The notes: generated from the sequence alone by a model not told the origin. Positions 3,335-41,100 are shown, counted from the first letter of the stretch. The stretch: 64,000 nt of DNA from Trypanosoma brucei (GCA_000002445.1 CH464491.1:960001-1024000), one strand, 5' to 3'. A program made the numbers and translations.

Positions 3335-3350
3335 GTGTGTGTGTGTGTGT
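3335..3350. repeat. (GT)8 microsatellite
   Basis: Direct read of gtgtgtgtgtgtgtgt in the gene-free interval. Confidence 0.9.
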
Positions 3351-4043: not shown

Positions 4044-4057
4044 TTTTTTTTTTTTTT
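4044..4057. repeat. poly(T)14 homopolymer
   Basis: Direct read. Confidence 0.9.
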
Positions 4058-4498: not shown

Positions 4499-4514
4499 GT
4501 GTGTGTGTGTGTGT
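4499..4514. repeat. (GT)8 microsatellite
   Basis: Direct read. Confidence 0.9.
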
Positions 4515-5659: not shown

Positions 5660-5695
5660 CCTCTTTTTCCTTTCTCCCAATTTCTCAATTGTGAG
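5660..5695 (+). promoter_or_regulatory. Polypyrimidine tract + AG, candidate trans-splice acceptor for the gene at 5892
   Basis: A run of C/T (cctctttttcctttctcccaatttctcaatt) is followed by AG at 5694-5695, about 200 nt upstream of the ATG. Longer polyY blocks at 5232-5290 and 5330-5370 could serve instead. Confidence 0.4.
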
Positions 5696-5891
5696 TATTT
5701 TTTACGGCAAGTACTGGTGCCACCATATAAGGAACCATCGAGTACGCTGACGTCAGCGTGTGAAAGATAGGGGAAATAGACAAGATATTTAGAACGAAAG
5801 AAAAAAAAGGGAGAGAAGCAAAAAAAAAATCTGAAGGTCAGGGTTCGCAGGTGTTCGTGTCACCTGAAAGTTTCACCGCGTTGTTGGAGAT

Positions 5892-8621: not shown

Positions 8622-9135
8622 AGCCCGGAATGTTCCTCACAATTGGAAGCAGAAAGTTCTTTGTGTTTGGGATTGCGGGGGTCGAAGAAAGTGGGGGGAG
8701 AGGGAAAACGAAAAAAAAGTCACATGACTCTGTGGGTATTAGAAGCGGTTTTGTAACGTCGACGACGTGAGGGAGCGGCGCGCATATTGCTCACTCATGT
8801 ACATTATGAAAGAGGATAAATAGTTGTCTCACCTGGATGTATGAAGCATGTGCCACCTTCCCTTCTCCTATACCGAGGTGACTTTCTCTGTTTCTTGTAT
8901 GTTTTTGCACATCAACAGTGCGTCTATGTACGTAAACACACTCATTGAGGAAGAGAGGGGGAGGGGGAGGGGGCGGCCTAAATCGTTGTTTTTTAGTGCC
9001 ACATCCCCGTTGTACAGGTGCGAAGCGTTCCTACGCCAACGGTGGTCTAAACACTCACCCTGAATTGTTGAAGAGCTTCAAATTATTCTATTCCATCTGG
9101 TCCATGCTTTGATAACCGTGAAATCGATGACACTT

Positions 9136-9175
9136 CGCTTTTTTTTCTTTTCTTTTCTTCCTTTTTTCACGGGAG
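9136..9175 (+). promoter_or_regulatory. Polypyrimidine tract + AG, candidate trans-splice acceptor for the gene at 9216
   Basis: cgcttttttttcttttcttttcttccttttttcac is followed by AG (9174-9175), about 40 nt upstream of the ATG. Confidence 0.45.
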
Positions 9176-9215
9176 CACGGAGTAGTCTCAAGGCACATCC
9201 GACACAGCTGCAGGT

Positions 9216-9779
9216 ATGCTCAACATCACCAGACTGCGCAACCTTCCGGAAGACCTCTTCGAGGTCGACCGGCGTCAAAAGAATGGTTCCAATCAAAGTG
9301 GCAAAGGTTGGCCTCAACATAAGGAGCTGATCTTCGACTTCACGTCACTAGTGCGAGCATACAATCAGAACAAATTTGAGCACTTAACAGATACCTTTAA
9401 CAACAACAGGATTCTCATTTCTGAGCTCGTCTTACATCAGTTGGATGAAAAAAACAAGGTTGTGCGATCTACAGATGCTGCGAATGCCCAAGAGGATGAC
9501 TTCCATCCCGTTCGGCTGCGTGATTTAATAAATTTTCTCGTTACCAATATGACCGAAAGTTGGCTTGAGTTCCAGAGGAAGGGCACTCAGGAGGACAAAC
9601 AGTTTACTCAACTCCGTTGCTTGAATGAAAATGTCGAAACCCCACTGCGGCTGATAAGTTATGCGCTTTATAAAAAGAGGCAAGGAAAGGATGTTTTACT
9701 CGTTACTTCCGACTCAGGGCTCAAATGTGAGGCGGGGCTGAACTCCATTGATAGCCAAAGTATTGAAAACATTGGGTAG
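9216..9779 (+). CDS. Hypothetical protein, PIN-domain-like fold
   Basis: 187-aa ORF with an ATG start, preceded by a polyY tract (9136-9170) and AG. The acidic residue pattern resembles PIN nucleases: LIFDFTSL (strand 1 Asp), ILISELVLHQLDE (conserved Glu), an internal DD, and C-terminal LLVTSDSGL (T-x-D motif). Confidence 0.55.
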   Translation: MLNITRLRNLPEDLFEVDRRQKNGSNQSGKGWPQHKELIFDFTSLVRAYNQNKFEHLTDTFNNNRILISELVLHQLDEKNKVVRSTDAANAQEDDFHPVRLRDLINFLVTNMTESWLEFQRKGTQEDKQFTQLRCLNENVETPLRLISYALYKKRQGKDVLLVTSDSGLKCEAGLNSIDSQSIENIG

Positions 9780-11554
9780 TTGCGTACTTAACAATACTTT
9801 GCGGGACAGATATCGCGCTCTTATGACTTCGTGAATGGGGGCAAAAGAAAAAAAGGATTGTTTCATGGTAGGTGTTGGTTCACTTATACATTAAAAGAAT
9901 GTGCCACTGCCATTTGTTAAAGGTCAGTTCCACAAGTATCATCTACCAGATTGCGCTAAATATGCTTGTTGAAGGAATAACATGTCATTCCTTCATCCTG
10001 TCTCCTCGGTATTAATTCACTTATCTCCATGTGTTTTCGGTGGTTGGAGGGCCCGATGGCGCATGTGCTGGCATCCCTCCGTCGTGGCCACTCGGGTGGT
10101 GTCTGCTACCGGTACCGTTGGGGCGATTTAACAAAGTTCCGTGTGGCGACTGCGCTCAGGCGCTTGGGAGGTGACTGTGTGTAAATACGGAAATGACGGT
10201 GAACCCTTCAACAACGCTGGTGGTTTCCACGCTTGGTCTGAAGGGTCCTGCGGAAGGCAACCACGTTTCCAGGACACCGTTCTATACACGTGCAGACTGG
10301 CGAAACTTTCTGCGGAATCATTCTAAATGTTTGTGGCATGTTTTGCTTTGCAGATACCTTTTGTTGTACAAAAAAGGTGTCTTCTTCCTCTTGAGGAGGG
10401 AGAGGGAGGAGCAACTGACCTTTGACTTCATTTTGAATCAAAACGCGGATAAGCAAGTGTGAGTTGCCGGGCCCGTGGCTAGCAGATGCACAGTAGCATA
10501 TAACTGCGCTTCAAGGAGTCACTCTATACCTCTTCAAGCTGCACAAGCGCGAGAATTAGTGGTATCTACATTGTGCTGTTTCATGTGAAATTTCTGGAGT
10601 TTACTTCATCGCCCCGCAAAACTACGGACTGAGAGCAAGTACGTGATACTGAAGGCAAGAAACAAACTGCTGAAGGCGGAAACCCCTAGTTTATTTCCCG
10701 ATCGACCTTCCCTGTTAGCGAAGGAGCGCAACCATCTTTACCGGTTGTCGTAGGAAATTAGTGGAAACATCGACTGTACACAACCTTTCCACATTGTTAC
10801 GGGTATGGTTGGGGCGATTCGGCTGTCGATGAGCGAAGAGGAATGGCGAGCAGCGAGTGCTCGTTCACACTACCTCTGTGCCATTGAGTTTCCTATAGGA
10901 ACCACGGCGTGAAGCATTCTGCCTTCTTCGGGTTTATAAGCGGTTACGACTGTTGCGGTGGGGTCCACAGCACCGCATGTCTCACTTGCCTTTACGAACG
11001 AGTTGAACAGATGCTACTTTCTTCGTCGTAAACACGTGGTGTGCTGGACCGAAAGAAGAAGGTAGGCACATGCCTACCGATAGGTCACTCAGTGGCACGC
11101 TAATTAAAGTAAATTCTCTGAGAAGCCTGTGGACTGGTGAAATATCTCTGCTTGGGAAGAAGAGAATGACCAGGGCCTCCGATTCTGGTAGTTTTTCCAC
11201 CACTGCGTGGACGGCTGAAAGAGTCGGCAATACGCAATGTCTTCGTGTGCTTCCTCACTCACGTTACACATGCGTATGTGGTTCAGCATGGGGTTATAGT
11301 TTTGTTGCAGCTTTATTCTTTCTTTCTTGGTCTTATTGACGCCTACATAAGATCTAACTGGAAAATATGCACTGGACATTACGCTGCAGTTCCTGCGCAT
11401 GTATTTACATGTACCTTGCTACATGCCTCGTGTTTATTTTTCCCCTTTAATTCTGTCTCAATTATCTCCTTTAATGTCCTTTGTATATAACGTGGTGCTA
11501 GGAGTAGTTCCCAGATTTGTCGGATACAACAGTACCACCAGGTGATCAAGATCA

Positions 11555-12028
11555 ATGGCAGACGGTAAGGCAGAAAATGAGTTGATGGAAATTGAAGAAA
11601 TCGCCGTTTCAGACGGAGGGGCCGCTCGCTTCGCACCAGTAGAAGTGAAGAGCGGTGAGGAAAAGTACAACATCGTTTGGGAGGAAACTGGGAAGCTTCT
11701 GCGCTTCGATGAGGGTGAGAATGCGTGGAAGGAGCGTGGGCAGGGCATGGCAAAGATACTACAGAAGAAGGAAGACAGTGGGGTGTACATGTTCGTATTC
11801 CGCCGTGAAGGTGTTGGGAAGTTGGCGGCCCAGCACTACTTACTTCGTGGCATGACGATTAAGGTGCATCCACAGAGCGAAAAAGCACTTCTGTGGACGG
11901 CGTTCAAGGACTACAGTGATGATGAGGAGGGGTTCCCCGAGAGGTTTGTGCTTCGGTTCGCCTCGAAAGAATTAGCTGATAGCGGGTTGAAGGCGTTCAA
12001 CGATGCCCTTTCCAAAACCACCACATAG
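11555..12028 (+). CDS. RanBP1: Ran-binding protein 1 (RanBD1 domain)
   Basis: 157-aa ORF. The RanBD1 hallmarks appear in order: KLLRFDEGENAWKERGQGMAKIL, VYMFVFRREGVGKLAAQHYL, HPQSEKALLWTAFKDYSDDEEGFPERFVLRFASKELADSGLKAFNDA. These match RanBP1 family motifs (WKERG, acidic FADE-like patch, RF..e.A..F). Confidence 0.85.
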   Translation: MADGKAENELMEIEEIAVSDGGAARFAPVEVKSGEEKYNIVWEETGKLLRFDEGENAWKERGQGMAKILQKKEDSGVYMFVFRREGVGKLAAQHYLLRGMTIKVHPQSEKALLWTAFKDYSDDEEGFPERFVLRFASKELADSGLKAFNDALSKTTT

Positions 12029-12985: not shown

Positions 12986-15900
12986 ATGGATGGTCTCAGC
13001 ACACAATACTTGCAGATGGCGAACGGCCCGCAGAGCCAGATGCATGATCCGGTATCTGTGGTGAATTTCGTAGACCAAATGCAACTTGCTTTTGAGAGAA
13101 GCACGGCCCCGCGTAAGAACTTCCTCCTTGACAGCACAACGCCTCGTGGTGATGCTATCATTACTGAAGTTTCTGCAATGAAGCCAGGGAACGGCTGGGT
13201 CACACTGCAGGTAACCGAGGGAATTAGGCGTGGTGTGCACGAATGGGGTGTAACCATTGAAAACCAGGGCGAGACCACAGACGGAAGTGGGCTCATGCTT
13301 GGAATAGTTCCCAAAAGCTTCTCAAAGTATGATTCCTTCATTTCACAAGGTGGTGGCTGGTGTCTAAGCCGCGCCGGAAAGTTTTACGGCCATTGGAGGA
13401 GGCACGAGGCGAACGCAAGCGTTACTTTTGGTACAGGTGACCGTGTCATTTTTATTCTGGATTACGAAGCGGCACGCATGACGGTGCGGGTGGGCGATAA
13501 GTATGTTGTGGGTGAGATTAGCAACATTGCTCCCGAGGTGTTCCCGGCGGTATCCCTGCATTATCGGCACCAGTTTGTGCGGTTTGAGTACCGCAAGGTG
13601 CATGATCGGCAGTCAAAGAAACTGAATTGGATAGAGAGACTTGCATTCCCTCACGCAACGGTGTTCCTACCACTGACAAGGCAACAATTAGAAGATGTAC
13701 CACTAGGTTCATACGTTTTTAGTCCACTATTCGCCGAGGGGCAGGGATGTGCGCCGCCGCGGAAAAGGCAGGGAGAGCATGGGCCAGCAACTGGCGAATC
13801 TCTTGACACTGAGGAAAGGGGAGCGAAGTTGCATTGCGATTACGAGGCTCACAGCGCTGCAAAGGCACGGTTGACTGTTGTTCTTCGCGCCATACAAGCA
13901 GTGAGACGCTACTGTACGAACGGTGTTGTGGCGGCACACACTTTTCTTGACCGAAACGTAACGGCAGAAATGCTGCGAAGTCAACGACACGCCTTAGCAA
14001 CTCGCGGGTCCGATCGGCGCGGCGGAGGGGACGCCGCAGTGGACTGCGGGGCGTTAATACTTATCCACATGTTTTCGCACTCCAGCATGACAATCACTGG
14101 TGTTACTATGTTACCGGTGCTGCGTAGCTTGCAAGAGTACCTTCGTAGTGTTGACCTCTTTAGCCTCAGTGAAGCATCTGTTGGTTGCACTAACGCGGGG
14201 ACCATCGTTTCTCCAGACGTTGTGCGGATGGCAGCAGATAACGTAGCTGGGCTCATTGACCGCGCTCGTAGGAATGAGTGTGATAGCAGCAATGATACGG
14301 CTGTCAGTGGTATGGGTAGCACAGATGCTAGCATCAGTTTGATTCCCGGTTTGACGGAACTCCTTGTACTGGTGGCACTGCAGTGTGGTACGGTGTGTGA
14401 AGTACTCCGTGCCGTCAGGGTGCTGCTGCGCGCACCCACAAGTGATGTTTCACCCGAGATGCTCACTTGGTTGCGGTTGAATAAGGCAGCGCTCACACCG
14501 AAATGTTACCTACCTAAACTTCACGAAGCCTATGACGCTATTGAAGAGGATATGGAGCATGTTACGCCCTTCGCTCCTACCATAGAGGTTAAGGTTATTT
14601 CAGTAGGTTATCATCGTGGAGCAATATACGTTCATACAGCTGACACCCTCCGTAGGTGGGGTGTTTTTGTTGGGGCATACACACCAACATCCACGACAAC
14701 CGAACCTAGGAACTGCTGCCTCAACTGTACCAGCTCCAGTATCGCTTTTATGAAGGACGAAGGGGTCATATTCCACACTGATCGTATGGCGGGTGCCGGC
14801 ATTGCTGTGGTGGTCTATTCTTCATCACTTGAGATCCAGCAAACGGTGATGCTTGCCAGTGTGCCACAGTGGCCTACGACGTCCAATTATGTGCGCATGT
14901 GCTCTGGGCCCGGCCACCACATATTGCTTGTGTACGACGTGCCTCACTCGGACACATCGTCAGCATTACGAGGAACGGCAGCTCCGGTGCCATCGACAAC
15001 CGCGGGAACGTTGACGGACGACGCAAGCAAAGCTTCTGCTACTGGAATCGAGGTACAAGTACTCAATGGCAAAAAGTTTCCGGAGGTAAAGTGGCGTACG
15101 AAACTTCAATTTCCACCATTCGACAACACAACAAGATCGTGTGTGACGTTGCGCAAAGGAAGCGTCATTGACTTTGGCAACCCTGAGACGTACCTTAACA
15201 CCACAGGTGGTCACATAACTGTGGAAGTGTGGATAAAAATGCTTGATAAGAACGATGTTTCCGTGTTTTACCAGCATGGTGACCGCAGCACAAGTGGCGA
15301 AGTATTTCTCGAGACGGCACGGCTGGAGGGGGCGTGGCGGATTCGTGGTGGCTATCGTCACGACTATCGTGGAATGTGTGTCGTTTCGGCGCCATTTAAC
15401 CCGGCTTCCGAGTCCCGTTTCGTTCATGTGGCGTTGGTGTTCGACGGAAACTGGCGACTTCATTTTGATGGTGAAGAGGTGTCGCGTACCAAACAGTGCC
15501 TCCAGGTGGCACTTGAAAACCCCCGGCAGCGATGGACAGCCGGCAATGACTGCGTTTGCCAGTTGGCGGGGCTGCGGGTATGGAAGGGGGGGCGGACATT
15601 TCGCGAGATTGCCCGTGATTCCTCCCGTGTTCTTGGTGGAGATGAGCCTGGTCTGGTGTGCCAATACCTATTCAACGAGCACAACGGAAACGTCGTCTAC
15701 AACCATGTGAGGGGCGAAGCGGCTGCGGGACGTCACGCCATTGTCCGGGGGGCATTTTCTCGCACTGTGTGCAACGATCATCCACTTCTCGCTTCTGCAC
15801 ACAGCGAGCCGGCACTCGGGACCTCGACGGTGCGTGTCACAGCCCCAACGTACGATCTACCTAAACTAGAGCATGCTCATGTGTTCTATGACGGTGTACA

Positions 15901-18900
15901 TCTTGGTATATTAGAACAGAAGGAGCGAGCATTTCATGGTTTTGCTGAGATGAAATGTCTCCACCAGGCAGTGTTTTTTGACATTGAAACTGGTCGCGGA
16001 GTGTATGGGAGTTTCATGCTTCGACATCGCTACAAGCTAGGTCTCCTCGGGTGCGATGAAAATGGCCGTTACTGGGAGCTATTTCAGGCAGGGGGGCAAC
16101 CAAACGTTTCTTTGTTTGGTCAGCAGCAGCAGCAGGCGCAGTTACCTGCAACCGTTTCAGCAGGTACACTCTCCGTCTCCCCGAGCGCAGTGCTGGAAGA
16201 GGACCACATCGCGTGGCACGACAACTTGGAATTTTTATCCTTCACTAGCTCAGTTAAGTCCGAAACACCGGGTGATGCCCCGAAGGGATCCATTTATGGG
16301 GACATGGGTACCAGCTCACCAACCGACAATGACATCAATACCCAGCATATGAGCTTTGGTGCATTGGCGATTTGGTTGTTGAACCTCCTTTCTTCGTTCT
16401 CGGAATCAAACGACACTGCGTCCACCAATTCCCTGTTTAGTCCACTACTTGACGATGTGAGTGTTCGCTGTGTGCAGGAAATACGGCAGTTGCTGCACGA
16501 ACACTGTCGCCCAGTGAAGTCCATCAGCTCGAGGCGTTCCCTGAGTCTTAAGGACAGTACTTCCACCATTGCCATTGGCACTGCCATGCGCATCCTTCTG
16601 CGCCTTGTGAGACGGGTGCGTGATTTCAGAATACATCCGGACACGATTGGACTTTCTGAAGCTGCTTCTGTCGGTGATCTCAGAGGTGTTTTTCGTGAAC
16701 TTAATGCCATCCAGCGCAGGCGTAGTACCGATTGGTCTAAAGCTGGCGATTCCTTTTTGACTACGCCAAGTCAGGCAGCAACGATGGCGAAGGCGGCATT
16801 GTCAGTACCGCCAAAAGACATATTCAACAGCATTTCACCAACTTATATACCACATGTTGGATTGGGCTTACTTGGCATTCTTCTTGACATCATAAATGAG
16901 TCGGGCTTAAGTTTACCCACAGAGTTGGGTAGCATAGCTTGCATCATCGTAAACGAAGGTGTAACACTTTTCTTCCCCACTGCGGTGGTGCGTGCCAATC
17001 TGCTACGTGAAATACTCGGAAAGGAGGAAGAGAGCATGACTCGGTCACCGGCTCTGAGTGTGCTTCTTCATGCTATTGTAAGGAGTTTTACTGATGTAAC
17101 ATCTGCGGCGTCCCTTCTTCAGATCACAGAACCCGACAACTGCATTCCGAGGCGAAATGATGGCATCGAACCGAACCGAAGCAAAAATGACGATACCGCG
17201 GCAGCCTATGGAAAGCTCGCTGCAGTAAAGAGCACACTTTCAACGTTAGTTGTAGAATGTACACAGCAGGTAATGCGCCAGGCTCCAAACAATCTGCGTC
17301 AGTCCCAACTTTCCCTTCTGTCGACAATGGCTGAGGCAATCGGGGTACTGCAGATGCTGCTTTTTAGTCACTGTGATGAGTTTGGGACAGTGGATGTACA
17401 CGAAAAGATGAACAAAGGTATTGAAAATATGCATTCACTCCACGGTGTCGTTGGACTTGGTACGACGGCAAGAGATTATTACACGGAACTTTTTGATAAT
17501 GCGGGGCTAATTTTCGAAACATTTGCGCAACGACTTGAGGTGATGTCATTGGGAGAGGAAAAGGAGACATCCGGAAGAGTTTCTTTTGTTCTCGATGTGC
17601 TTGGTAACTCCTTCGTTGGAAGCCCACTTCACACAGCTATTACCGCCTTGCCCCTTATGTGCTCTCAGGAGGAATCTGGGTGGTTGCTTGGGAGACTCAA
17701 CCACTTGTCGCTACGGTATCGCGCACTTCTTTGCTCACTTCGCGCAAGCATGACAACGGGAACAACACTTGGGTCACACCGTCCACTACATGTCCTCGAC
17801 ACCGCCCTGTCGTTGGCATCTTCGTGGGTTGCATCCTTCATGTCATTAGGACAAATATCGGCACCAACAATACGGGAGGAAAGTGCTTCCCCGTCCCACT
17901 CAACTGTCTCGACACCGCCTCACGACAACGCGACTGATGCACCGTCTTGTGAATTATCCGCCACCCTGAAGGAAATCTGTGACCACCCTCTGCTTGCTGC
18001 TGGAATAAAAAAAGACGACGACAAAAATGATAAAAAAATGGAAGTTCTAATGAAGCTTCAACAGCGGCAGGCCGAGTGGCAGTCCATTGCTCGACGGGAT
18101 GTGGTGCTTGCGTCCAAGACGCCGGTGGAGATTGAAGAAGTGATATCTATGGCTGCAATCGCAGTTGTTCATCTTAGCAGTGCGAGAATAGAGGTTCTCG
18201 CCATGAACGAATGTATCGAATTGCTTGCAAAGACATTGGTACGCCTGAAAGGACTAAGGAGTGGATTACTGGATAAACGTTCCAAGAGTCCCGGTGACTT
18301 TTTAGCTGTCCAACAAAACGCGAAGGAGTGCTGTCATTTCCTGCTGCGTGTGGCAAGAGTATCGGACTCTACAGTGATTCAAATGCCATCCCTCTATCTC
18401 GCTCGGACGTACGCGGATCGAGCGCAGGGGGATCCTAAACGGCCTGGCAATGTGAACGTCGACAATTGGAAACGGGCAGTCCTCATTATGCGGATGAAGC
18501 GGCTCTACCATCGTGCCCTTGTCTATGGCTGGTCATTGATTCAGATTCCCGCCGCAGTTGCACTTGTGGAACGTATCATTCTCTCCCCCGAAATAAAAGC
18601 ATCAGACATGCGGGAAGCCTTCGAAGAGAGGGAAAGGGGGGCGCTCAGGCGCTTAAGTGGTCTTCAGCATATGTACCAGCTATTTCAGAATAATGCCCGC
18701 CTTGGTTGTAAGGTTGCATCACTTCTTTTCAATGGTCGCGTGGGTGGAGGCCGACATTTTGAGCTTGGCATATCCGCGTCGGGTGATTCCACGCGTTGTA
18801 GCTACCGACAAACGATGTATGACATTATTCGGCGACTTTGTGAGATCACACGGCCGATAACAAATCACAAAGGCTTCCCCGAGGCAACCACTGATGGCTC

Positions 18901-21900
18901 TGCATCACCTGCGTCGTCTCCACGAGGAGTTGTCGAACCGTGTCGATCAGCTACGCTAAGCGAGGTACTCAACAGGCAGTGGCTTCCCAGTGATTTTTGT
19001 TTCTTCAGGGAGGTCCGCGTCGTGGAAGTAATGTTCCTTTCGTTCTGTAGCATATTCCAACCAAATGCGTCTGAAACGTTGCGGCATGAACGGGCACTGG
19101 AGCTGTCGCACCGGGGGGCCGTTAAGGGGAATAGAACCCACCCGGTGGCTGGCATCGGTGGGAGCAACAACGGCACTACCTTTCCAAGCTCTACCACTGC
19201 TATGAGTGGTGGTCGTACGAGCGGGAGCGGTAGACCTCTTGCTGTTGTCGCGCCCGGGGGTGTGGGAGATGAAGGAAATGAACAGACGTTGCAGCGCACA
19301 CCGAGCGAGTGGGCGTTGCTGGAATCTCTCAATGCCCTCAAGTCATTGGGACTACAGTGTGCTGCTGCGCTGGGTGATGAGAATGCGGCACCGAACGAGG
19401 TGCGTGGCTGTGTTAATTTTCTCGACCTCGTTTTTGAGGTGCTCGATGAGGAGCTACGTAAGTGCGCTTACTATGCATCACAGCCGTACTACCATAGTCA
19501 AGATCGCGTACTGGAGCACATCGGATTGCTGTGTACTCTAATCAGCACGTTTGCCCGAGCGCTTCCGGCTGGCTTTATTTGCACTGAGGTTGTCTGTCCA
19601 AAAGCGGCGTTTCTGGCCTTCCGCCTTTGGTTGGTGGCTGATGTAATGGTATTAGCATCCGCAATGAATGTGGGAGCCTGTCCACTGGCGGAGGTATGCG
19701 TTCACACCAGTATTTTGCTACTTCGTCACTGCTCGCCCGCTGCTGTCAACCCATTGTTTACCAAAGAGAGTATTATGAGTGTTGTGCGGAAGTTACTACC
19801 CGCCGTAGCCGCGGATTGTGCAGCTGTAGGCTACTTTTTTTCCTTTGCAATACGTTGTGTCTCTGGGGACAGTAGTACGGGTGGCAGTGGTGCAAGCGGG
19901 AGTGCGCTCGGTAATTTCGGTGACATTGGGATAAGCTGTGTGGCTTCGCTACATGCACTTCTCTGCAGTCACCCATGGGATGAGACATTCTCCGCCATGC
20001 GTGGGCCTTTCTTGGCTGACCTCGCAGACTCGGCAAATGGCGGAGAGGCCATGCGTCCGAACGGCGTTCGTCTGCTCATGTGGATTTATCTCATCGGGGG
20101 GCCTCCGTCTGCTTCGTTAGGTCCTGGCAGGAAGGTTTTCATGTGTGTTGACGAAACGCTAGCAGCAACCGAGGAAGCTTACATCGTCGACTGCAACGCG
20201 AAGGCGGGCACAGCAACCGTCTTGCCAATACAAGTGGGCGCATTCACCGAGGAACATGAGGTTCCCCTCGACAACCTCATCAATGCGTCGCAGGATGAGG
20301 TTCTACTTCCCCGCTCTGAGGTGTTATTCCAGTTCCTACTTCCAGCCTTGGAACAGTGCTTCTCACCGCGACTTCGGCCACATTCTTCGCCCCTCCCGTG
20401 GGCTGTGATCGCCAGCCTGCTGCGCATCACACTCGCCGTCTTGAAAAAAGATCCTTCTGCAAGTTATGTCCTGCTTGAGCGGGGGATCATCGCGCAAGTG
20501 GACGATTTCGCGTTCCGGACACCTGCCAAAACCCCGTTACCGTTGCGGTATCTTTACGAGATGTGGCCGTTGCTCCTTCCACAGACAATGAATTGTCAAC
20601 AGCGGGCATTGTTTGATGCTGTCACCTCTTCCTCGAAGGATAATGATGCAAAGGCTCTATCATCCGGCTATGTATATCCGGTACGTACACCATGCCACGA
20701 TATCCAAGGTCCGCCTTCTGACCCTTCTGCGCACACAGCAAACTCGCTGTTTAGTGTAGCAGCTGCGGCTAGATACTCGGTACTTCCCCGTTTGGATGTT
20801 GAATGCAGCAACGCTGACGTGGATGATTACAACGGCAGTGGGAACATGGGGGGTAGTCCGGCCAATATTAGTGGGAGCAGCGTCGGTTGCACTGGTTCAC
20901 CTCCGCTGTTCTCCCGCCTACAGCAAGCACACTCCTCGCTCTGTCTTACACCCTCTGTTCTGTGCTTCAGTGGAGCCAGGGGCGATCCAGCCGGAACACT
21001 CATCATGAAGGGTGTCAGTAAGGATAGCTGCATCCCACCTTGGGCGGACGGTATAACCATTGAGGCGAGTGTCCTTCTGTATGACCGCCTTTTCCCCGAG
21101 CTGGGCGAAGCGTTCGTAATCCCAGCTTCCTGGGGCCGCCCACCAATTTCTTTCTCACTGTTTTCCTTGTACGAGAAGAAAGGAGACGGTCGAAGGTCGT
21201 TCCTGCGAGTGGTGCTGGACGAGGCGCGGATGGATTGTATCATAGAAACGGCAGCAGTATCGGCAGTGGTAATATCTACGAAACTTCTTCAGGAGGATTG
21301 GGACCATTGGATTCATTTAGCAGTGGTCATCGATAGCAAAAGCATAACGTTGTACAAAGATGGTGCTGGGGTAGCGGCGGCCCTTCCCAAGCACTTGGGT
21401 GTATACCTGGAAAATCTGTTTCGTGAAGGAAGCGTAGACCGGCTTGTTATAGGAAATATTAGTTCTGATGGAAAGAGAACTGGTCGGGGGGTCGTGTCAG
21501 TGGACGAAACCGACAGTGATGAAGCCAGTAGCAGTGGTGGTGGCAGGAGCTATGGCAAATCATCCAACGGGGTTGTTGTGGCTCTCGACAGTGTGCGGCT
21601 GTGGGGATGTGCGCGTTCTATGAAGATGCAGCGATCGGCCGCCGATTTCGTTGCGCGGGAACAGACGCTCCCGGTTTACGGTGTAAACGATGGTTCCAAC
21701 GTTACCTTTCGCTTTTCAGAGGCCACCGGAAACGAGACTTACGCTGAGAAGTGCGAGGGAGTGGGGGTGCTTAGCGGTAGTGTGCGCTGGGCCCCCTTCC
21801 CCGTTTTCTCCAGCAACGTTAACCTAGACAAGGTTCAGCGCACTGACGTGGCCCCACCTACTGCCCTACCTCTTTTCATTCCACGGCGTGAGTTTGAAAG

Positions 21901-24900
21901 CTTCTTTGCCACGCTTGACCACTCACCAGCCCTCAGGCTGGGTGGGGAGTACATGCAGAGCATTTGTGCTCATCTCAGTCGGCAGTGTGTTGTTGCCGCC
22001 ATTCAGCAAGCGATGTCGCCACAGTACCGTGTCGTTCACTTTGAACATTGTCGCACCAAAGGCTGCGGTGATGTTCCGGCTTCTGCCATTGTCGACCCGC
22101 GGAACATCATCGCAAGTACCGAGCTGATCAGCCATCTGATCAATTTGCTGCGATATAGTGACACTGGTTACCTTGAAGAAAAGGTGGTATTGGCAGTTTC
22201 CCAGTTTGTGAAGGTGTATTTTAGCTCTATGACCTCAGAAAAGCGTCTCTTGAAGGGATTCCGAGAGGCCGCCGTTGCGATCACTAAGGCTCTGCACGAT
22301 GAAACAGAACCTTTCTGTGTGGAATTGCCGACTGTTTCGTACGTGGCAACAGATGCTAATTTGGTGCCCATTGCTACTATTAACGGACCAGGAGGGGTAG
22401 TATCCTTCGATGCGAACAGTCGAGGTATCGAGCAGATGACCCTCTTGCGCGACCGTAAGCAGCGGGTACTCCTTGCAAAGTATCCCGACGCACAAAGCGG
22501 TTGGCCGGAGTTAGAGGTGCCTAGCGACAGCCTTTGGTTCTATGCGAAACCAAGCATCAGTACACGGTCTGTTGCACCATCCTTCACAGTTTCAGCACGG
22601 TCGCTTAAACCGCAGGTTGCGTGCGCAATTTTTGCTGCACTTCGTGAAGTTCTCTCTTCGGATGCTCGATTCCATTGCGGTCTTGGTTCTTTCTTGAACG
22701 CACCATTCATATCACTCTTGACGGTGCGCACAGGGACGACGAAGTGCGCTGCCGTCCCCTCGTGCCGAATCTTTACCTCTGTGTTGGAGTTGTGGCGGGA
22801 ATTCCCCCAATTCTCTCAACAAGACCAATGTCCATTGAAGATAACCCTAGCTAACCTCAACGCGCCGCTCATGTCGGTTCTACAGCGTGGCCATGCATCA
22901 GTTGCATCTTCGCCCATTGGTCGCCACAACGTGAGGGTTCAAAGTGTATTTGAGCTTTTGGTGGCCGCAATTCGGACCGAAGCAGCATGGGATATTTTGA
23001 CTCATAACCAGCGGACGCAAATCCGGTGGAGGCGCCTTTGCTCGCTGTGGGAACGTTCCATTGGCTTGTGTGCGCCAGCCATAACCATCGGAGTTAATTC
23101 CTCCGCCCTGCCTGCTTCCGCCACTACAGCTTTGGGCAATTCCAATCGAAACCACAAAGTTAGCAACGTTAATGCTGGTGGGTGCGGTTTGTCGTCGTCG
23201 GAGCATAAGCATGGTTATGTACATCTGGTTTTGTTGCCTTTTTCTGGTTCCACGCTGCAGCATCAACCCAAGGCATCGATATTCCAGCGCGGCAGTGGCG
23301 TTTGGAATGCCTTCTGCGACCGGGGTTTCCTCTCGGCACGTAGTAACGTGGGCTTCAAACATGGTCGGTTTTACTTCGAGGTCCGCATTCCTGCTAACGG
23401 CGATCCCATATCAGTGGGTGCTGTCACCGAGCGGGCGCAGCAGAACTCGTTTCTCTCACCGCGGGGGCTTGGCCACGACGGCGATTCTTGGGGTTTTGAA
23501 AGTGCGCAAATGTGTCGTTTCTATCATGGCTTTCGCCATGAATTTACCATGCGTACAAAGTGGAAGGGGCTTGATGTCATAGGCATCATGCTAGACCTTG
23601 AGACGGACACACTCGCCTGCCTGCACGAGGAACGTCAAGTTAGTGTGTTCGACAATTTCAGAGCATCCTTAGGTGCAGGGGTGCCTCTATCGTTTTTCCC
23701 AGCCGTTTCATTTGGAGCGGGAGGCGTAGATGTAAACTTCGGTGCGGCGCCCTTCGCCTACCGCGTTCCAGCTGGATTCGTACCAGTTGACCCATCAAAT
23801 TACATGGCTTCACCAACGTCAACGCCGTGGATGCTTATTTCGGCGATTGACGTAAGCGAGTGCCTTGCGAGGAGTGGGAAGAAGGGCACCGGGACGGACG
23901 CTAGTGATGGTGCCGTCGTTGCCACTAGTTCCTCAAAGGAAACCCGGCAGCTCCCACCCTTTCTAGCAAGAGCTAATGCTTCTGCTGCAACTTATTATGA
24001 AGGTCGAAGTGGACCACTGTGTGTGAACCTTCTTCCTTGTGGTCCTAAAAACAAAATGACATCTGTACAGGGAAGTGAGGTACGTGCTGAAGAGGACCCA
24101 CGGTTCTTTCGGGGTAGCGTTTGTGTCCGCTCTGGACGCTGGTACTATGAGGTTGGCCTCCGTGGCGACGCATTAATAAGTGTCGGTTGGGCAACGTCTA
24201 CCGCTGCAACTGATTGGTCGCGATCAAGGGGGTTGGGCGACGATGCTGAATCATGGGTGCTCGAAGGAAACCGAGCGACGGCAAGGCACAACAAGCACAC
24301 GCGAAGTGTTGGCGGCCAGTTGTGGAAACATGGCGATATCGTTGGCTGCTTGTTGGACTGCGAAGCCGGTACGATTGCGTACACACTGAATGGCGTCCCA
24401 CTACAGGAAGCGCAAAACACCGATGGTGAAGGTATTCTCTTCCGCTCAGTGAATCATGCAAACGGCCTGATGCCGGTCATTGGTGTTGACCCTAAAAATA
24501 CCGCGGTCGTCTGCTTCTGCGAGGAAGAACTATCGCACCTTCCGAAAAGGTGTCGGGCACTTGGCACAACGAGCCCCCTAAGAAAGGCACTGGAAAATCA
24601 CTTTTGTGGAGTAGATACAAGTGGGGTGGCGGAAAGGGGCGTCAGTGGTGTTTGTAGTACCCAATTCTCTCCCTCGCTGGCGCGACGTCTGCTACTGACC
24701 CTTTCGTCTTTGACGGAACTGAACTTTCACAATGGCGCAGCTTATTGCTTGGAAGATACCCTCACGAAGACTGACAAAGCCGTACTATGTGATAAGTTTC
24801 TGGGTCACAAAAACGCCATGCAGCTCCTTGTCACGTTACAAAACCTCACGAGCTTGGCCGAAGCGGTGATCCCGTATGCAGGCGTCCCGAGCATTCCTAT

Positions 24901-26368
24901 GGAATGCGATGTGCTTCTGTCTGGTCCCATCCGTAGGGCGTTGGATCACCTTCATGACTACATGCTTCCTGCTGTTGGCTTGCGTTTCCTCCATGGCTTT
25001 TTCTCCCAGACTAGCAGCTCTGGTGAAAATCTCAAACTTACGCTCAATAGGCGGAAGGCGTTGTCGCTGGTGAAGGACACAACTGCCACGCTTCCTGAGC
25101 GCCTCAGCGGAAGCATTTTCGGTCAGGTTTACCAACTGTTACACGACAAGAATGTTTCCCTTTTCTGTACCAGCCGGAAGCTGTGGTCCGTTAATTTTGT
25201 GGGGGAAGGCGCTGATGACATTGGCGGGCCGTACCGTGAAAGCATCACACAGCTGTGTTCCGAGTTGATGGGCCCAAGCCTCCCGCTCTTTATTCCTAGT
25301 CCTAACCAAGCCAGCGAAATTGGGGAGTCTCGTGAGGTGTTTGTCGTGAGGCCTGAAATGGAGGCCCCTGTGCGGCTAAATATGTACCACTTCTTCGGTC
25401 GTTTTCTCGGCGGTTGTCTCCGTAGCTCAGAGCCGGTTCCGATTTACCTCTCCAGCCGCGTGTGGAAGACAATACTCGGTGCGCCAGTGGGCGTAAGTGA
25501 CTTGGGGAGGGTAGATGTGGCAACAGTGCAGTCGTATCGATACATTCAACAACTTAGCTCATTGGGTGGCGGTGAAGCGGGCGCTACAGATGGAGAGGTT
25601 GAAGAACTGTGTCCCGGAGGATTTACTGTTGTGGACGATATTGGAGTGGAGCGAGAGCTCTTTCCAGGAGGAAGCGCCATATCCGTCGGCCGTCACAATG
25701 TTGATCTTTTTCTCGAGCTTGCCATGGACTACAGACTGCACGTAATGGGTGAAGCGCAGGTTAAGGCAATCGCAGATGGATTTCATCAGGTGGTCCCCGT
25801 GTCTGCAGTATCGTTACTGAAGTGGTATGAACTGGAGCGCATGGTTTGCGGTCTGCCAGACTATGATGCGGATGAGCTGCTTGATGCAGCACGATATGAA
25901 GATCTAAATCCGGACAGCGTTATTGTGCAGTACCTTCGCCAAGTGCTGCGTCAGTTCTCTCGCCATGAGCGTGCATTGTTCATGCGGTTTGTGAGTGGGA
26001 GGGAACGACTTCCTTCCGGAGTGCGGCTTAAGGTAATGCTTGACACCTCTGCACAGCAGACGAGAGATGAGCGTGGTAACAACGCCTCAGGTGCCGACAA
26101 CGCGGAGAACTCCAACATGGGTGGCGATACGTTTGATGACAGCAGACTCCCACACGCCTCCACATGTTTCTACTGGTTATCGCTGCCGCGGTACAGTTCA
26201 GTGGAGGTGATGCGGGAGAGGTTGCTCTTTGCGATTCAACACTGCCTTGACATTGATGCTGACTTCATGGTGCGTGACACCGGTAGTATGGAGGATGAGG
26301 GGGAACCCATGTTGGCTGTAATTGTGGAGGACGACGACGAGTTTGAGGATTTTTCACATCTTCGGTAG
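12986..26368 (+). CDS. Giant HECT-type E3 ubiquitin-protein ligase with multiple SPRY (B30.2) domains and a ConA/LamG-like domain
   Basis: 4,460-aa uninterrupted ORF with an ATG start and a polyY tract at 12761-12810. The C-terminal HECT domain runs from ~nt 25150 to 26368, with the catalytic Cys in LPHASTCFYWLSLPRY (TGT at 26165-26167) about 67 aa from the C-terminus. SPRY-like domains lie at ~13166-13590, ~23250-23700 (GRFYFEVRIPANGDPISVGAV) and ~24050-24500 (GRWYYEVGLRGDALISVGWAT). A ConA/LamG-like segment lies at ~15100-15700 (GGHITVEVWIKMLDKNDVSVFYQHGD). Confidence 0.9.
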   Translation: MDGLSTQYLQMANGPQSQMHDPVSVVNFVDQMQLAFERSTAPRKNFLLDSTTPRGDAIITEVSAMKPGNGWVTLQVTEGIRRGVHEWGVTIENQGETTDGSGLMLGIVPKSFSKYDSFISQGGGWCLSRAGKFYGHWRRHEANASVTFGTGDRVIFILDYEAARMTVRVGDKYVVGEISNIAPEVFPAVSLHYRHQFVRFEYRKVHDRQSKKLNWIERLAFPHATVFLPLTRQQLEDVPLGSYVFSPLFAEGQGCAPPRKRQGEHGPATGESLDTEERGAKLHCDYEAHSAAKARLTVVLRAIQAVRRYCTNGVVAAHTFLDRNVTAEMLRSQRHALATRGSDRRGGGDAAVDCGALILIHMFSHSSMTITGVTMLPVLRSLQEYLRSVDLFSLSEASVGCTNAGTIVSPDVVRMAADNVAGLIDRARRNECDSSNDTAVSGMGSTDASISLIPGLTELLVLVALQCGTVCEVLRAVRVLLRAPTSDVSPEMLTWLRLNKAALTPKCYLPKLHEAYDAIEEDMEHVTPFAPTIEVKVISVGYHRGAIYVHTADTLRRWGVFVGAYTPTSTTTEPRNCCLNCTSSSIAFMKDEGVIFHTDRMAGAGIAVVVYSSSLEIQQTVMLASVPQWPTTSNYVRMCSGPGHHILLVYDVPHSDTSSALRGTAAPVPSTTAGTLTDDASKASATGIEVQVLNGKKFPEVKWRTKLQFPPFDNTTRSCVTLRKGSVIDFGNPETYLNTTGGHITVEVWIKMLDKNDVSVFYQHGDRSTSGEVFLETARLEGAWRIRGGYRHDYRGMCVVSAPFNPASESRFVHVALVFDGNWRLHFDGEEVSRTKQCLQVALENPRQRWTAGNDCVCQLAGLRVWKGGRTFREIARDSSRVLGGDEPGLVCQYLFNEHNGNVVYNHVRGEAAAGRHAIVRGAFSRTVCNDHPLLASAHSEPALGTSTVRVTAPTYDLPKLEHAHVFYDGVHLGILEQKERAFHGFAEMKCLHQAVFFDIETGRGVYGSFMLRHRYKLGLLGCDENGRYWELFQAGGQPNVSLFGQQQQQAQLPATVSAGTLSVSPSAVLEEDHIAWHDNLEFLSFTSSVKSETPGDAPKGSIYGDMGTSSPTDNDINTQHMSFGALAIWLLNLLSSFSESNDTASTNSLFSPLLDDVSVRCVQEIRQLLHEHCRPVKSISSRRSLSLKDSTSTIAIGTAMRILLRLVRRVRDFRIHPDTIGLSEAASVGDLRGVFRELNAIQRRRSTDWSKAGDSFLTTPSQAATMAKAALSVPPKDIFNSISPTYIPHVGLGLLGILLDIINESGLSLPTELGSIACIIVNEGVTLFFPTAVVRANLLREILGKEEESMTRSPALSVLLHAIVRSFTDVTSAASLLQITEPDNCIPRRNDGIEPNRSKNDDTAAAYGKLAAVKSTLSTLVVECTQQVMRQAPNNLRQSQLSLLSTMAEAIGVLQMLLFSHCDEFGTVDVHEKMNKGIENMHSLHGVVGLGTTARDYYTELFDNAGLIFETFAQRLEVMSLGEEKETSGRVSFVLDVLGNSFVGSPLHTAITALPLMCSQEESGWLLGRLNHLSLRYRALLCSLRASMTTGTTLGSHRPLHVLDTALSLASSWVASFMSLGQISAPTIREESASPSHSTVSTPPHDNATDAPSCELSATLKEICDHPLLAAGIKKDDDKNDKKMEVLMKLQQRQAEWQSIARRDVVLASKTPVEIEEVISMAAIAVVHLSSARIEVLAMNECIELLAKTLVRLKGLRSGLLDKRSKSPGDFLAVQQNAKECCHFLLRVARVSDSTVIQMPSLYLARTYADRAQGDPKRPGNVNVDNWKRAVLIMRMKRLYHRALVYGWSLIQIPAAVALVERIILSPEIKASDMREAFEERERGALRRLSGLQHMYQLFQNNARLGCKVASLLFNGRVGGGRHFELGISASGDSTRCSYRQTMYDIIRRLCEITRPITNHKGFPEATTDGSASPASSPRGVVEPCRSATLSEVLNRQWLPSDFCFFREVRVVEVMFLSFCSIFQPNASETLRHERALELSHRGAVKGNRTHPVAGIGGSNNGTTFPSSTTAMSGGRTSGSGRPLAVVAPGGVGDEGNEQTLQRTPSEWALLESLNALKSLGLQCAAALGDENAAPNEVRGCVNFLDLVFEVLDEELRKCAYYASQPYYHSQDRVLEHIGLLCTLISTFARALPAGFICTEVVCPKAAFLAFRLWLVADVMVLASAMNVGACPLAEVCVHTSILLLRHCSPAAVNPLFTKESIMSVVRKLLPAVAADCAAVGYFFSFAIRCVSGDSSTGGSGASGSALGNFGDIGISCVASLHALLCSHPWDETFSAMRGPFLADLADSANGGEAMRPNGVRLLMWIYLIGGPPSASLGPGRKVFMCVDETLAATEEAYIVDCNAKAGTATVLPIQVGAFTEEHEVPLDNLINASQDEVLLPRSEVLFQFLLPALEQCFSPRLRPHSSPLPWAVIASLLRITLAVLKKDPSASYVLLERGIIAQVDDFAFRTPAKTPLPLRYLYEMWPLLLPQTMNCQQRALFDAVTSSSKDNDAKALSSGYVYPVRTPCHDIQGPPSDPSAHTANSLFSVAAAARYSVLPRLDVECSNADVDDYNGSGNMGGSPANISGSSVGCTGSPPLFSRLQQAHSSLCLTPSVLCFSGARGDPAGTLIMKGVSKDSCIPPWADGITIEASVLLYDRLFPELGEAFVIPASWGRPPISFSLFSLYEKKGDGRRSFLRVVLDEARMDCIIETAAVSAVVISTKLLQEDWDHWIHLAVVIDSKSITLYKDGAGVAAALPKHLGVYLENLFREGSVDRLVIGNISSDGKRTGRGVVSVDETDSDEASSSGGGRSYGKSSNGVVVALDSVRLWGCARSMKMQRSAADFVAREQTLPVYGVNDGSNVTFRFSEATGNETYAEKCEGVGVLSGSVRWAPFPVFSSNVNLDKVQRTDVAPPTALPLFIPRREFESFFATLDHSPALRLGGEYMQSICAHLSRQCVVAAIQQAMSPQYRVVHFEHCRTKGCGDVPASAIVDPRNIIASTELISHLINLLRYSDTGYLEEKVVLAVSQFVKVYFSSMTSEKRLLKGFREAAVAITKALHDETEPFCVELPTVSYVATDANLVPIATINGPGGVVSFDANSRGIEQMTLLRDRKQRVLLAKYPDAQSGWPELEVPSDSLWFYAKPSISTRSVAPSFTVSARSLKPQVACAIFAALREVLSSDARFHCGLGSFLNAPFISLLTVRTGTTKCAAVPSCRIFTSVLELWREFPQFSQQDQCPLKITLANLNAPLMSVLQRGHASVASSPIGRHNVRVQSVFELLVAAIRTEAAWDILTHNQRTQIRWRRLCSLWERSIGLCAPAITIGVNSSALPASATTALGNSNRNHKVSNVNAGGCGLSSSEHKHGYVHLVLLPFSGSTLQHQPKASIFQRGSGVWNAFCDRGFLSARSNVGFKHGRFYFEVRIPANGDPISVGAVTERAQQNSFLSPRGLGHDGDSWGFESAQMCRFYHGFRHEFTMRTKWKGLDVIGIMLDLETDTLACLHEERQVSVFDNFRASLGAGVPLSFFPAVSFGAGGVDVNFGAAPFAYRVPAGFVPVDPSNYMASPTSTPWMLISAIDVSECLARSGKKGTGTDASDGAVVATSSSKETRQLPPFLARANASAATYYEGRSGPLCVNLLPCGPKNKMTSVQGSEVRAEEDPRFFRGSVCVRSGRWYYEVGLRGDALISVGWATSTAATDWSRSRGLGDDAESWVLEGNRATARHNKHTRSVGGQLWKHGDIVGCLLDCEAGTIAYTLNGVPLQEAQNTDGEGILFRSVNHANGLMPVIGVDPKNTAVVCFCEEELSHLPKRCRALGTTSPLRKALENHFCGVDTSGVAERGVSGVCSTQFSPSLARRLLLTLSSLTELNFHNGAAYCLEDTLTKTDKAVLCDKFLGHKNAMQLLVTLQNLTSLAEAVIPYAGVPSIPMECDVLLSGPIRRALDHLHDYMLPAVGLRFLHGFFSQTSSSGENLKLTLNRRKALSLVKDTTATLPERLSGSIFGQVYQLLHDKNVSLFCTSRKLWSVNFVGEGADDIGGPYRESITQLCSELMGPSLPLFIPSPNQASEIGESREVFVVRPEMEAPVRLNMYHFFGRFLGGCLRSSEPVPIYLSSRVWKTILGAPVGVSDLGRVDVATVQSYRYIQQLSSLGGGEAGATDGEVEELCPGGFTVVDDIGVERELFPGGSAISVGRHNVDLFLELAMDYRLHVMGEAQVKAIADGFHQVVPVSAVSLLKWYELERMVCGLPDYDADELLDAARYEDLNPDSVIVQYLRQVLRQFSRHERALFMRFVSGRERLPSGVRLKVMLDTSAQQTRDERGNNASGADNAENSNMGGDTFDDSRLPHASTCFYWLSLPRYSSVEVMRERLLFAIQHCLDIDADFMVRDTGSMEDEGEPMLAVIVEDDDEFEDFSHLR

Positions 26369-41097: not shown

Positions 41098-41100
<3 letters not shown>

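What the first reader, a model, noticed from the sequence alone, without database searches (positions are those of the whole stretch)
12986..26368. 4,460-aa HECT ligase with three SPRY modules and a ConA/LamG-like module
The ORF runs uninterrupted for 13.4 kb. The architecture is SPRY, then a ConA/LamG-like fold, then a long helical region, then SPRY, SPRY, and a C-terminal HECT with an intact catalytic Cys (TGT 26165-26167). SPRY domains usually recruit substrates. A HECT enzyme carrying three of them, spaced by more than 3,000 residues of probable armadillo/HEAT-like scaffold, resembles the giant HERC/HECTD scaffolds of animals, but the domain order is different. Between residues ~250 and 3400 I recognise no domain at all.
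Basis: partly seen in the sequence, partly recalled or inferred. Interest (0 to 1): 0.5.

Follow-up and report, generated by a model that had tools for sequence, protein, structure and literature searches.

The report
Known giant trypanosome HECT ubiquitin ligase
This is the already-annotated Trypanosoma brucei gene for a 4,460-residue HECT-type ubiquitin ligase (most likely Tb927.11.3390, the orthologue of Leishmania HECT4); its SPRY plus ConA-like layout was described as a family in 2013, so the finding is real but ordinary.

Summary
The ORF is real: 12986..26368 (+), 4,460 aa. Its protein is identical to T. brucei brucei TREU927 XP_828421.1 / UniProt Q386H2 on chromosome 11. The catalytic Cys4394 (TGT 26165-26167) is invariant in all 25 family members examined. 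Full-length, colinear orthologues exist in Trypanosoma, Leishmania, Phytomonas, Leptomonas and unnamed environmental sequences, so this is not a frameshift or fusion artefact.

The L. mexicana orthologue is HECT4 (LmxM.13.1470), already knocked out in a published bar-seq screen. The Laminin_G3 + SPRY + HECT layout defines family 'HECTEx1' of class I HECTs (Grau-Bové 2013).

Two AlphaFold models cover 2,400 residues. They show helical blocks broken up by β modules and disordered linkers, not one continuous ARM/HEAT solenoid.

Small additions from this work: the second ConA-like module; four β modules with no Pfam match; an extremely conserved, unusual N-terminal SPRY; and a family-wide C-terminal tail ending in DDDEFEDFSHLR.

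Verdict: already known, function still biochemically untested, low interest.

The parts
12986..26368 (+). Complete CDS of the giant HECT E3 ligase (4,460 aa, 486.5 kDa). Identical to T. b. brucei TREU927 XP_828421.1/Q386H2; inferred to be Tb927.11.3390
13121..13630 (+). SPRY1 (residues ~46-215; Pfam 85-198). The best-conserved part of the whole protein, but a divergent SPRY subtype
   Evidence: Pfam 30 bits; 74% mean identity over residues 101-200; hhalign to SPRY2 94.4%; no PDB hit by phmmer; profile reaches GUSTAVUS/SPSB1 only at E 0.006
13823..14548 (+). Helical block (residues ~280-521)
   Evidence: AF2 model 1, DSSP
14561..14941 (+). Beta-rich block with no Pfam match (residues ~526-652, 11 strands, pLDDT ~90); fold type not resolved
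15044..15769 (+). ConA-like / Laminin_G_3 module 1 (residues ~687-928; Pfam 739-867)
   Evidence: Pfam 31 bits; Foldseek hits to ConA-like carbohydrate-binding protein 4dqa (1.2e-7), laminin LG4-5 and BoNT Hc
15875..16171 (+). Second beta-rich block with no Pfam match (residues ~964-1062)
16355..17119 (+). Helical block (residues ~1124-1378), start of the central scaffold. Residues 1400-2299 (17183-19882) were not modelled and have no Pfam hit
20132..20284 (+). Small beta module (~50 aa, residues ~2383-2433) inserted between helical blocks
   Evidence: AF2 model 2; no Pfam hit
20954..21796 (+).
22304..22600 (+). All-beta module of ~100 aa (residues ~3107-3205) containing the invariant K3165, P3167, D3168, W3184; no Pfam match
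23309..23758 (+). SPRY2 (residues ~3442-3591; Pfam 3461-3586)
   Evidence: Pfam 46 bits; hhalign to SPRY3 99.7%; nearest solved relative is nematode SPRYSEC-15, 7e-8
24080..24535 (+). SPRY3 (residues ~3699-3850; Pfam 3718-3845)
   Evidence: Pfam 75.5 bits; nearest solved relative is a ryanodine-receptor SPRY, 5e-16
25106..26266 (+). HECT catalytic domain (residues ~4041-4427; Pfam 4089-4420), ending in the class-I-type motif C.DIDADF
   Evidence: Pfam 200 bits; HECTD3 1.6e-42, HUWE1 5e-31
26021..26143 (+). Low-complexity insertion in the C-lobe just upstream of the catalytic loop (residues ~4346-4386); about 80 aa longer in Leishmania
26165..26167 (+). Catalytic Cys4394 codon (TGT), invariant in 25/25 family members
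26267..26365 (+). Family-specific 33-residue C-terminal extension beyond the HECT domain, ending in the conserved acidic-aromatic motif DDDEFEDFSHLR (26330-26365)

Best explanation
This is a single-copy housekeeping gene of T. brucei (inferred Tb927.11.3390, orthologue of L. mexicana HECT4). It encodes a giant single-chain class I HECT ubiquitin ligase of the euglenozoan 'HECTEx1' type. Shown here: a complete bilobal HECT domain with an invariant catalytic Cys4394; three SPRY and two ConA-like beta-sandwich modules; and a colinear architecture kept across kinetoplastids and more distant unnamed relatives. Inferred from established HECT biochemistry: a ubiquitin-charged E2 docks on the HECT N-lobe; ubiquitin passes to Cys4394 as a thioester; it is then transferred to a lysine on a substrate. 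The substrate would be held by one or more of the five beta-sandwich modules (SPRY domains typically bind short peptide motifs), which sit on a mixed helical and beta scaffold. The invariant Asp residues of the DIDAD motif may supply the carboxylate normally provided by the C-terminus, because the chain runs on for another 33 residues. Substrates and the cellular pathway are unknown. The only functional data are from Leishmania: the HECT4 null mutant is viable in promastigotes but less fit during amastigote differentiation and infection.
Against: No enzymatic activity, E2 partner, substrate or localisation has been shown for this protein or any orthologue, and no paper in the searched library names Tb927.11.3390. 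The C-terminus is non-canonical: a 66-residue post-Cys tail against 33 in HUWE1, plus a low-complexity insertion next to the catalytic loop, either of which could alter or restrain catalysis. Class I placement rests on similarity ranking and shared motifs, not on a phylogeny built here. The gene ID is inferred indirectly. Residues 1400-2299 were not modelled.
Confidence: 0.85

Rival explanations
1. Self-regulated ligase. The conserved acidic-aromatic C-terminal tail (DDDEFEDFSHLR) is a built-in peptide ligand for one of the protein's own SPRY modules, most plausibly the ultra-conserved SPRY1. Binding in cis or in trans would give auto-inhibition or oligomerisation, relieved by a competing partner.
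For: The tail is present in 25/25 members with near-invariant F4453, E4454, D4455, H4458 and L4459, and it is absent from other class I HECTs. SPRY1 is the most conserved region at 74% identity. Its weak nearest solved relatives, GUSTAVUS/SPSB1, are peptide-binding SPRYs. The SPRY1 signature at residues ~40-220 is found only in this family among 1.84 billion representatives.
Against: The tail could instead act in catalysis or bind an outside partner. SPRY1-like domains also occur, at 90-165 bits against more than 265 within the family, in an EGF-repeat protein, a B-box/coiled-coil protein and two stand-alone ~170-aa proteins, none of which ends in this tail motif.
Confidence: 0.1
2. Lectin-type E3. 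The two ConA-like modules bind glycans and direct the ligase to glycosylated substrates, in the way SCF-Fbs1 recognises N-glycans.
For: The closest folds are carbohydrate-binding ConA-like domains, sialidase lectin domains, pentraxins and laminin LG domains. Grau-Bové 2013 annotates Laminin-G3 as binding complex sugars.
Against: LamG and pentraxin folds very often mediate protein-protein contacts. No sugar- or Ca2+-binding residues were examined, and sequence identity to the lectins is only 8-17%. No signal peptide or transmembrane segment was noticed in the translated sequence (no predictor was run), so the protein is probably cytosolic or nuclear, where glycan ligands are scarce.
Confidence: 0.1
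3. Catalytically dead scaffold (pseudo-HECT), with the C-terminal extension and C-lobe insertion having abolished ubiquitin transfer.
For: Non-canonical 66-residue post-Cys tail and a ~40-residue low-complexity insertion before the catalytic loop.
Against: The catalytic Cys and flanking loop are invariant, and the HECT domain is conserved at 44-54% identity across the family. HERC2 and HECTD3 share the C..ID.D ending, and HERC2 also carries a long acidic extension. Burge 2020 found the catalytic Cys in L. mexicana HECT1-12, which includes HECT4.
Confidence: 0.04
4. Assembly or annotation artefact: several genes fused into one ORF.
For: None, beyond the unusual length.
Against: Independent assemblies of at least 10 genera give colinear single ORFs of 3,948-5,883 aa. 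One of them is an 11.8-kb uninterrupted gene on a 1.49 Mb metagenome contig.
Confidence: 0.01

Closest known systems
Leishmania mexicana HECT4 (LmxM.13.1470; Burge et al. 2020, PMC7647121)
   Same: Orthologue. It is colinear along the whole length, with the same SPRY, ConA-like, HECT and C-terminal tail features. Its listed T. brucei orthologue is Tb927.11.3390.
   Different: The Leishmania protein is about 1,150 residues longer (5,610 aa), spread over many insertions, including ~80 aa before the catalytic loop. Only the Leishmania gene has knockout fitness data.
HECTEx1 family, class I HECTs (Grau-Bové et al. 2013, PMC3673628)
   Same: Excavate origin. Laminin_G3 + SPRY + C-terminal HECT is the stated defining architecture.
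   Different: I could not confirm that kinetoplastid sequences were in the original family, because the supplement is not held. The paper does not describe the domain order, the second ConA-like module or the C-terminal tail.
Human HECTD3 (PDB 9R85/9R8T/9R94)
   Same: Closest solved HECT domain (1.6e-42). It shares the ...C.xID.D[FM] ending and has Ser rather than His two residues before the catalytic Cys. According to the 2026 review, its N-terminal region is also a non-repeat helical domain with inserted beta units.
   Different: HECTD3 is 861 aa, carries a DOC/APC10 domain and has no SPRY or LamG domains. The trypanosome protein has no DOC domain and has a 33-aa tail extension.
Animal large HERCs (HERC1, HERC2)
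   Same: Giant class I HECTs. HERC2 HECT domains are the best named non-family hits (35% identity, ~1e-52). HERC1 carries a SPRY domain. HERC2 also has a long acidic C-terminal extension.
   Different: The trypanosome protein has none of the HERC-defining RCC1-like domains, and no WD40, Cyt-b5, MIB-HERC2, ZZ or APC10 domains. The tail sequences are unrelated.
HUWE1 / Tom1 / UPL1 (class VI giant HECTs)
   Same: Similar overall size, and a C-terminal HECT domain on a large scaffold with inserted modules.

Membership tests
HECT E3 ubiquitin ligases (PF00632) | C-terminal bilobal HECT domain | tested here: met
   Pfam 200 bits, profile positions 2-300 of 306; HECTD3 1.6e-42, HUWE1 5e-31
HECT E3 ubiquitin ligases (PF00632) | Catalytic cysteine in the LPxA/SxTC loop | tested here: met
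   Cys4394 in RLPHASTCF, invariant in 25/25 members
HECT E3 ubiquitin ligases (PF00632) | Canonical C-terminal end (about 33 residues after the Cys, -4 Phe, free carboxylate near the active site) | tested here: inconclusive
   F4427 sits at the equivalent position (DIDADF), but the chain continues for 33 more residues. Class I relatives share this, and an acidic side chain can substitute for the carboxylate
HECT E3 ubiquitin ligases (PF00632) | Forms a ubiquitin thioester and ubiquitinates substrates | not testable with these tools
   Needs biochemistry
Class I HECTs (Grau-Bové 2013) | SPRY domain(s) N-terminal to the HECT domain (stated to be exclusive to class I) | tested here: met
   Three SPRY modules; paper statement
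Class I HECTs (Grau-Bové 2013) | HECT domain groups phylogenetically with HERC1/2, HECTD3 and KIAA0614 | tested here: inconclusive
   No tree was built. As a proxy, the best solved hit is HECTD3 and the best named hits are HERC2, and the C..ID.D end motif is shared with HERC2, HECTD3 and stramenopile SPRY-HECTs
HECTEx1 (Excavata family of class I) | Laminin_G_3 plus SPRY plus HECT in an excavate | tested here: met
HECTEx1 (Excavata family of class I) | Clusters with the sequences originally assigned to HECTEx1 | not testable with these tools
   The paper's supplementary sequence lists are not held
Large HERCs (HERC1/HERC2) | RCC1-like domain(s) | tested here: not met
   No PF00415 or related hit in any of the 11 family members scanned
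HECTD3 | DOC/APC10 domain | tested here: not met
   No PF03256 in 11 members
HUWE1/Tom1-type (class VI) | DUF908/DUF913/DUF4414 armadillo-like solenoid | tested here: not met
ConA-like lectin/glucanase superfamily (LamG/pentraxin type) | Jelly-roll beta-sandwich fold, present twice | tested here: met

The most novel reading that the evidence does not exclude
The euglenozoan HECTEx1 ligases regulate themselves through a family-specific C-terminal acidic-aromatic peptide (…DDDEFEDFSHLR). This peptide docks into their own ultra-conserved, atypical N-terminal SPRY domain, closing or oligomerising the 0.5-MDa enzyme. The protein would then carry both a SPRY 'reader' and its own ligand.
Probability: 0.1. 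Interest if true: 0.45.

Novelty: already known. Interest (0 to 1): 0.2.

Why it matters
Little changes. The gene is in the reference genome, UniProt already calls it a ubiquitin-protein ligase, and one database record already names all three domain types. The family architecture was published in 2013 and the Leishmania orthologue has been knocked out. For anyone who studies this ligase, this work adds a corrected domain map: two ConA-like modules, four beta modules with no Pfam match, and a scaffold that is not a simple solenoid. It also adds two conserved features that give concrete handles for mutagenesis: the atypical SPRY1 and the C-terminal tail motif. Kinetoplastid E3 ligases are of some interest for targeted protein degradation, but nothing here makes this one a priority.

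Tried and rejected
- Pfam on the whole protein, on ten overlapping tiles, on 11 family members and on the isolated small beta modules found nothing beyond HECT, SPRY and Laminin_G_3.
- All-against-all hhalign of 40 family sub-alignments found no internal repeats other than SPRY-SPRY and ConA-ConA. This gives no support for detectable repeated helical units.
- Chou-Fasman style composition profiles did not discriminate anything, so I dropped them.
- SPRY1 against PDB sequences: no hit by single sequence, and only marginal by profile.
- A literature search for the gene IDs returned nothing. Of the five IDs searched, only Tb927.11.3390 and LmxM.13.1470 came from a source; the other three were guesses.
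- The supplement of the 2013 survey is not held, so original HECTEx1 membership could not be checked.
- I could not name the organisms behind the distant homologues P0022-P0025; the databases give none.
- Rfam, tRNA and tandem-repeat scans of the window were empty.
- Readings rejected: a HERC (no RCC1 domain), HECTD3-like (no DOC domain), HUWE1-like (no DUF908/913/4414 domains), and a fused-gene artefact.

Full report
**Observation.** The window holds one uninterrupted ORF at 12986..26368 on the + strand, 4,460 codons long. An in-frame stop lies seven codons upstream of the ATG, and the N-terminus aligns with the orthologues, so the start is sound. All 17 genuine large ORFs in the window lie on the + strand, as expected for a kinetoplastid polycistron; two more ORFs of over 200 aa are antisense and overlap one of these genes. 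A polypyrimidine tract followed by AG sits about 150-220 nt upstream of the ATG, consistent with a trans-splice acceptor.

**Identity.** The translated protein is identical to T. brucei brucei TREU927 XP_828421.1 / EAN79309.1 / UniProt Q386H2, which lies on a 5.26 Mb contig (chromosome 11). It is 99% identical to the T. b. gambiense protein. UniProt calls it 'Ubiquitin-protein ligase'. The 90%-identity cluster member from the NCBI record SCU69485.1 is already named 'Concanavalin A-like lectin/glucanases superfamily/SPRY domain/HECT-domain'. The L. mexicana orthologue P0019 (5,610 aa) has a computed mass of 592.1 kDa. That is exactly the value listed for HECT4 = LmxM.13.1470 in Table S1 of Burge et al. 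2020, which names Tb927.11.3390 as its T. brucei orthologue. I therefore infer the window gene is Tb927.11.3390. In that study the hect4 null mutant was obtained in promastigotes. It lost fitness during axenic amastigote differentiation and early macrophage infection, and had compromised fitness in mice. No paper in the searched library mentions the T. brucei gene ID.

**Domain content.** Pfam gives these matches:

| Module | Residues | Bits |
|---|---|---|
| SPRY | 85-198 | 30 |
| Laminin_G_3 | 739-867 | 31 |
| Laminin_G_3 (partial) | 2744-2797 | 26.8 |
| SPRY | 3461-3586 | 46 |
| SPRY | 3718-3845 | 75.5 |
| HECT | 4089-4420 | 200 |

**Not an artefact, and conserved order.** Full-length colinear homologues were found in these groups:

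| Source | Length (aa) | Identity |
|---|---|---|
| T. vivax | 4,492 | 54-56% |
| T. grayi | 4,431 | 54-56% |
| T. cruzi | 4,423 | 54-56% |
| T. rangeli | 4,413 | 54-56% |
| Phytomonas | ~5,075 | not calculated |
| Leptomonas | 5,753 | not calculated |
| Leishmania | ~5,600 | not calculated |
| Unnamed transcriptome or metagenome sequences | 3,948-4,753 | 24-36% |

One of the unnamed sequences is an intronless 11.8-kb gene on a 1.49 Mb contig. The distant member P0022 shows three SPRY and two Laminin_G_3 stretches; P0024 shows two and one. I could not name the organisms behind the most distant members.

**What lies between the Pfam domains.** Two AlphaFold2 models were built on 25-sequence family alignments.

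Residues 200-1399 (pLDDT 70, pTM 0.65):
- disordered 200-293
- helices 280-521
- a confident 11-strand beta block at 526-652
- the ConA-like sandwich at 687-928
- another beta block at 964-1062
- a disordered linker
- helices 1124-1378

Residues 2300-3499 (pLDDT 72, pTM 0.72):
- helices 2313-2371
- a ~50-aa beta module at 2383-2433
- helices 2444-2535
- a 117-residue disordered linker
- ConA-like module 2 at 2657-2937
- helices 2967-3104
- a ~100-aa all-beta module at 3107-3205, carrying the invariant K3165, P3167, D3168 and W3184
- helices 3208-3358
- a disordered linker, then SPRY2

**Conservation pattern.** Across 11 diverse members, the N-terminal SPRY1 is the best-conserved part of the protein: 74% mean identity over residues 101-200. 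That compares with 44-54% for HECT, about 50% for ConA-like module 1 and 53% for SPRY3. Yet SPRY1 is the least typical SPRY. It scores only 30 bits in Pfam, has no solved relative by phmmer, and its family profile reaches only GUSTAVUS/SPSB1 SPRY domains, at E 0.006-0.09. An exhaustive profile search of 1.84 billion cluster representatives found 16 proteins above 265 bits. All carry the domain at about residues 40-220, so they are family members or their N-terminal fragments. Scores then fall sharply to 165 bits and below. The weaker hits include an EGF-repeat protein, a B-box/coiled-coil protein and two stand-alone ~170-aa proteins that keep the motifs TPH, GWVT, GGWC.SR.G and YPA.SL.Y.

**The catalytic end.** The HECT domain is closest to HECTD3 (1.6e-42), then HUWE1 (5e-31) and HACE1. 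The best named hits outside the family are HERC2 (~194 bits, 35% identity), against ~94 bits for HUWE1-like proteins. Like HERC2, HECTD3 and other SPRY-HECTs, the domain ends in C..ID.D. All 25 family members then continue, giving 65-68 residues after the catalytic Cys where HUWE1 and UPL1 have 33. They all end in a conserved acidic-aromatic motif, [DE][DE]x[FY]E[DN][FY][ST]HL[RL], which in T. brucei is DDDEFEDFSHLR. F4453, E4454, D4455, H4458 and L4459 are invariant or nearly so. A variable low-complexity insertion at ~4346-4386 precedes the catalytic loop and is about 80 residues longer in Leishmania. The review cited states that HECT aminolysis uses either the C-terminal carboxylate or an acidic side chain. 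The invariant D4424 and D4426 could fill that role here; this is inference.

**Comparison with what is known.** Grau-Bové et al. 2013 place HERC1, HERC2, KIAA0614, HECTD3, HECTEx1, HECTAm1 and HECTHe1 in class I. They state that SPRY is exclusive to class I, and they define HECTEx1 (Excavata) and HECTHe1 by Laminin-G3 plus SPRY. The window protein meets those architectural criteria. It is not a HERC (no RCC1 domain), not HECTD3-like in its N-terminus (no DOC domain) and not HUWE1-like (no DUF908/913/4414 domains). A 2018 T. cruzi survey already lists the 4,423-aa orthologue among HECT proteins with SPRY and Laminin G3 domains.

**Mechanism.** The most likely reading (confidence 0.85) is an active single-chain class I HECT E3. 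An E2 charged with ubiquitin docks on the N-lobe, ubiquitin moves to Cys4394, and it is then passed to substrates held by the SPRY and ConA-like modules. The domains, the Cys and their conservation are shown here. The catalysis and the recruiting role of the beta-sandwich modules are inferred from family knowledge. Rival readings are:
- a self-regulating tail-to-SPRY1 interaction (0.1)
- glycan recognition by the ConA-like modules (0.1)
- a dead scaffold (0.04)
- an assembly artefact (0.01, effectively refuted)

**Verdict.** The feature is already known at gene, family and architecture level, although its biochemistry is untested. Interest is 0.2.

Noticed in passing
window 26267-26365 (residues 4428-4460): All 25 family members extend 32-35 residues beyond the normal HECT end and finish with a conserved acidic-aromatic motif (DDDEFEDFSHLR in T. 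brucei). Other class I HECTs have unrelated extensions, and HUWE1-type proteins have none.
   Followed up: partly
window 13121-13630 (residues 46-215): SPRY1 is the most conserved region of the protein (74% identity across the family), yet it is a divergent SPRY with no clear solved relative. The same subtype occurs weakly in stand-alone ~170-aa proteins (P0149, P0151), a B-box/coiled-coil TRIM-like protein (P0150) and an EGF-repeat protein (P0144), all from unnamed organisms.
   Followed up: partly
window 14561-14941, 15875-16171, 20132-20284, 22304-22600: Four confidently predicted beta modules have no Pfam match (residues 526-652, 964-1062, 2383-2433, 3107-3205). The first two flank ConA-like module 1 and may form a propeller-like domain or a second jelly roll. 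The last carries the invariant K3165, P3167, D3168 and W3184.
   Followed up: partly
window 26021-26143 (residues ~4346-4386): A low-complexity insertion sits in the HECT C-lobe directly before the catalytic-Cys loop. It is length-variable and about 80 aa longer in Leishmania.
   Followed up: partly
window 36-12028 and 26826-63056: The neighbouring + strand genes are ordinary. Upstream: a P4-ATPase flippase (cut by the window start), an AAA ATPase and a RanBP1-domain protein. Downstream: several ORFs with no Pfam hit, an LRR protein, a WD40 protein, EMP70/TM9SF, RNA polymerase III subunit RPC5, an adenylate-kinase-like protein with a Dpy-30 motif, an FKBP-like protein and an ACBP protein.
   Followed up: yes
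window 37832-41409 (also 2814-5891): Long AT-rich stretches without convincing ORFs (GC 0.36-0.42) contain several (TA)n microsatellites (38735, 39165, 41100). They are most likely long UTR or intergenic regions. Rfam, tRNA and TRF scans found nothing.
   Followed up: partly
window 13981-14496, 14966-15664, 18865-19341, 22898-23362 (- strand): Antisense ORFs of 154-232 aa lie inside the giant gene, mostly with non-ATG starts. Such ORFs are expected by chance opposite a long GC-balanced coding region, and they were not examined further.
   Followed up: no
L001 3001-14847: A distant homologue (P0024, 3,948 aa, 25% identity) is encoded as one intronless 11.8-kb gene on a 1.49 Mb ENA metagenome contig (ERZ25333236). 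The source organism is not identified.
   Followed up: no
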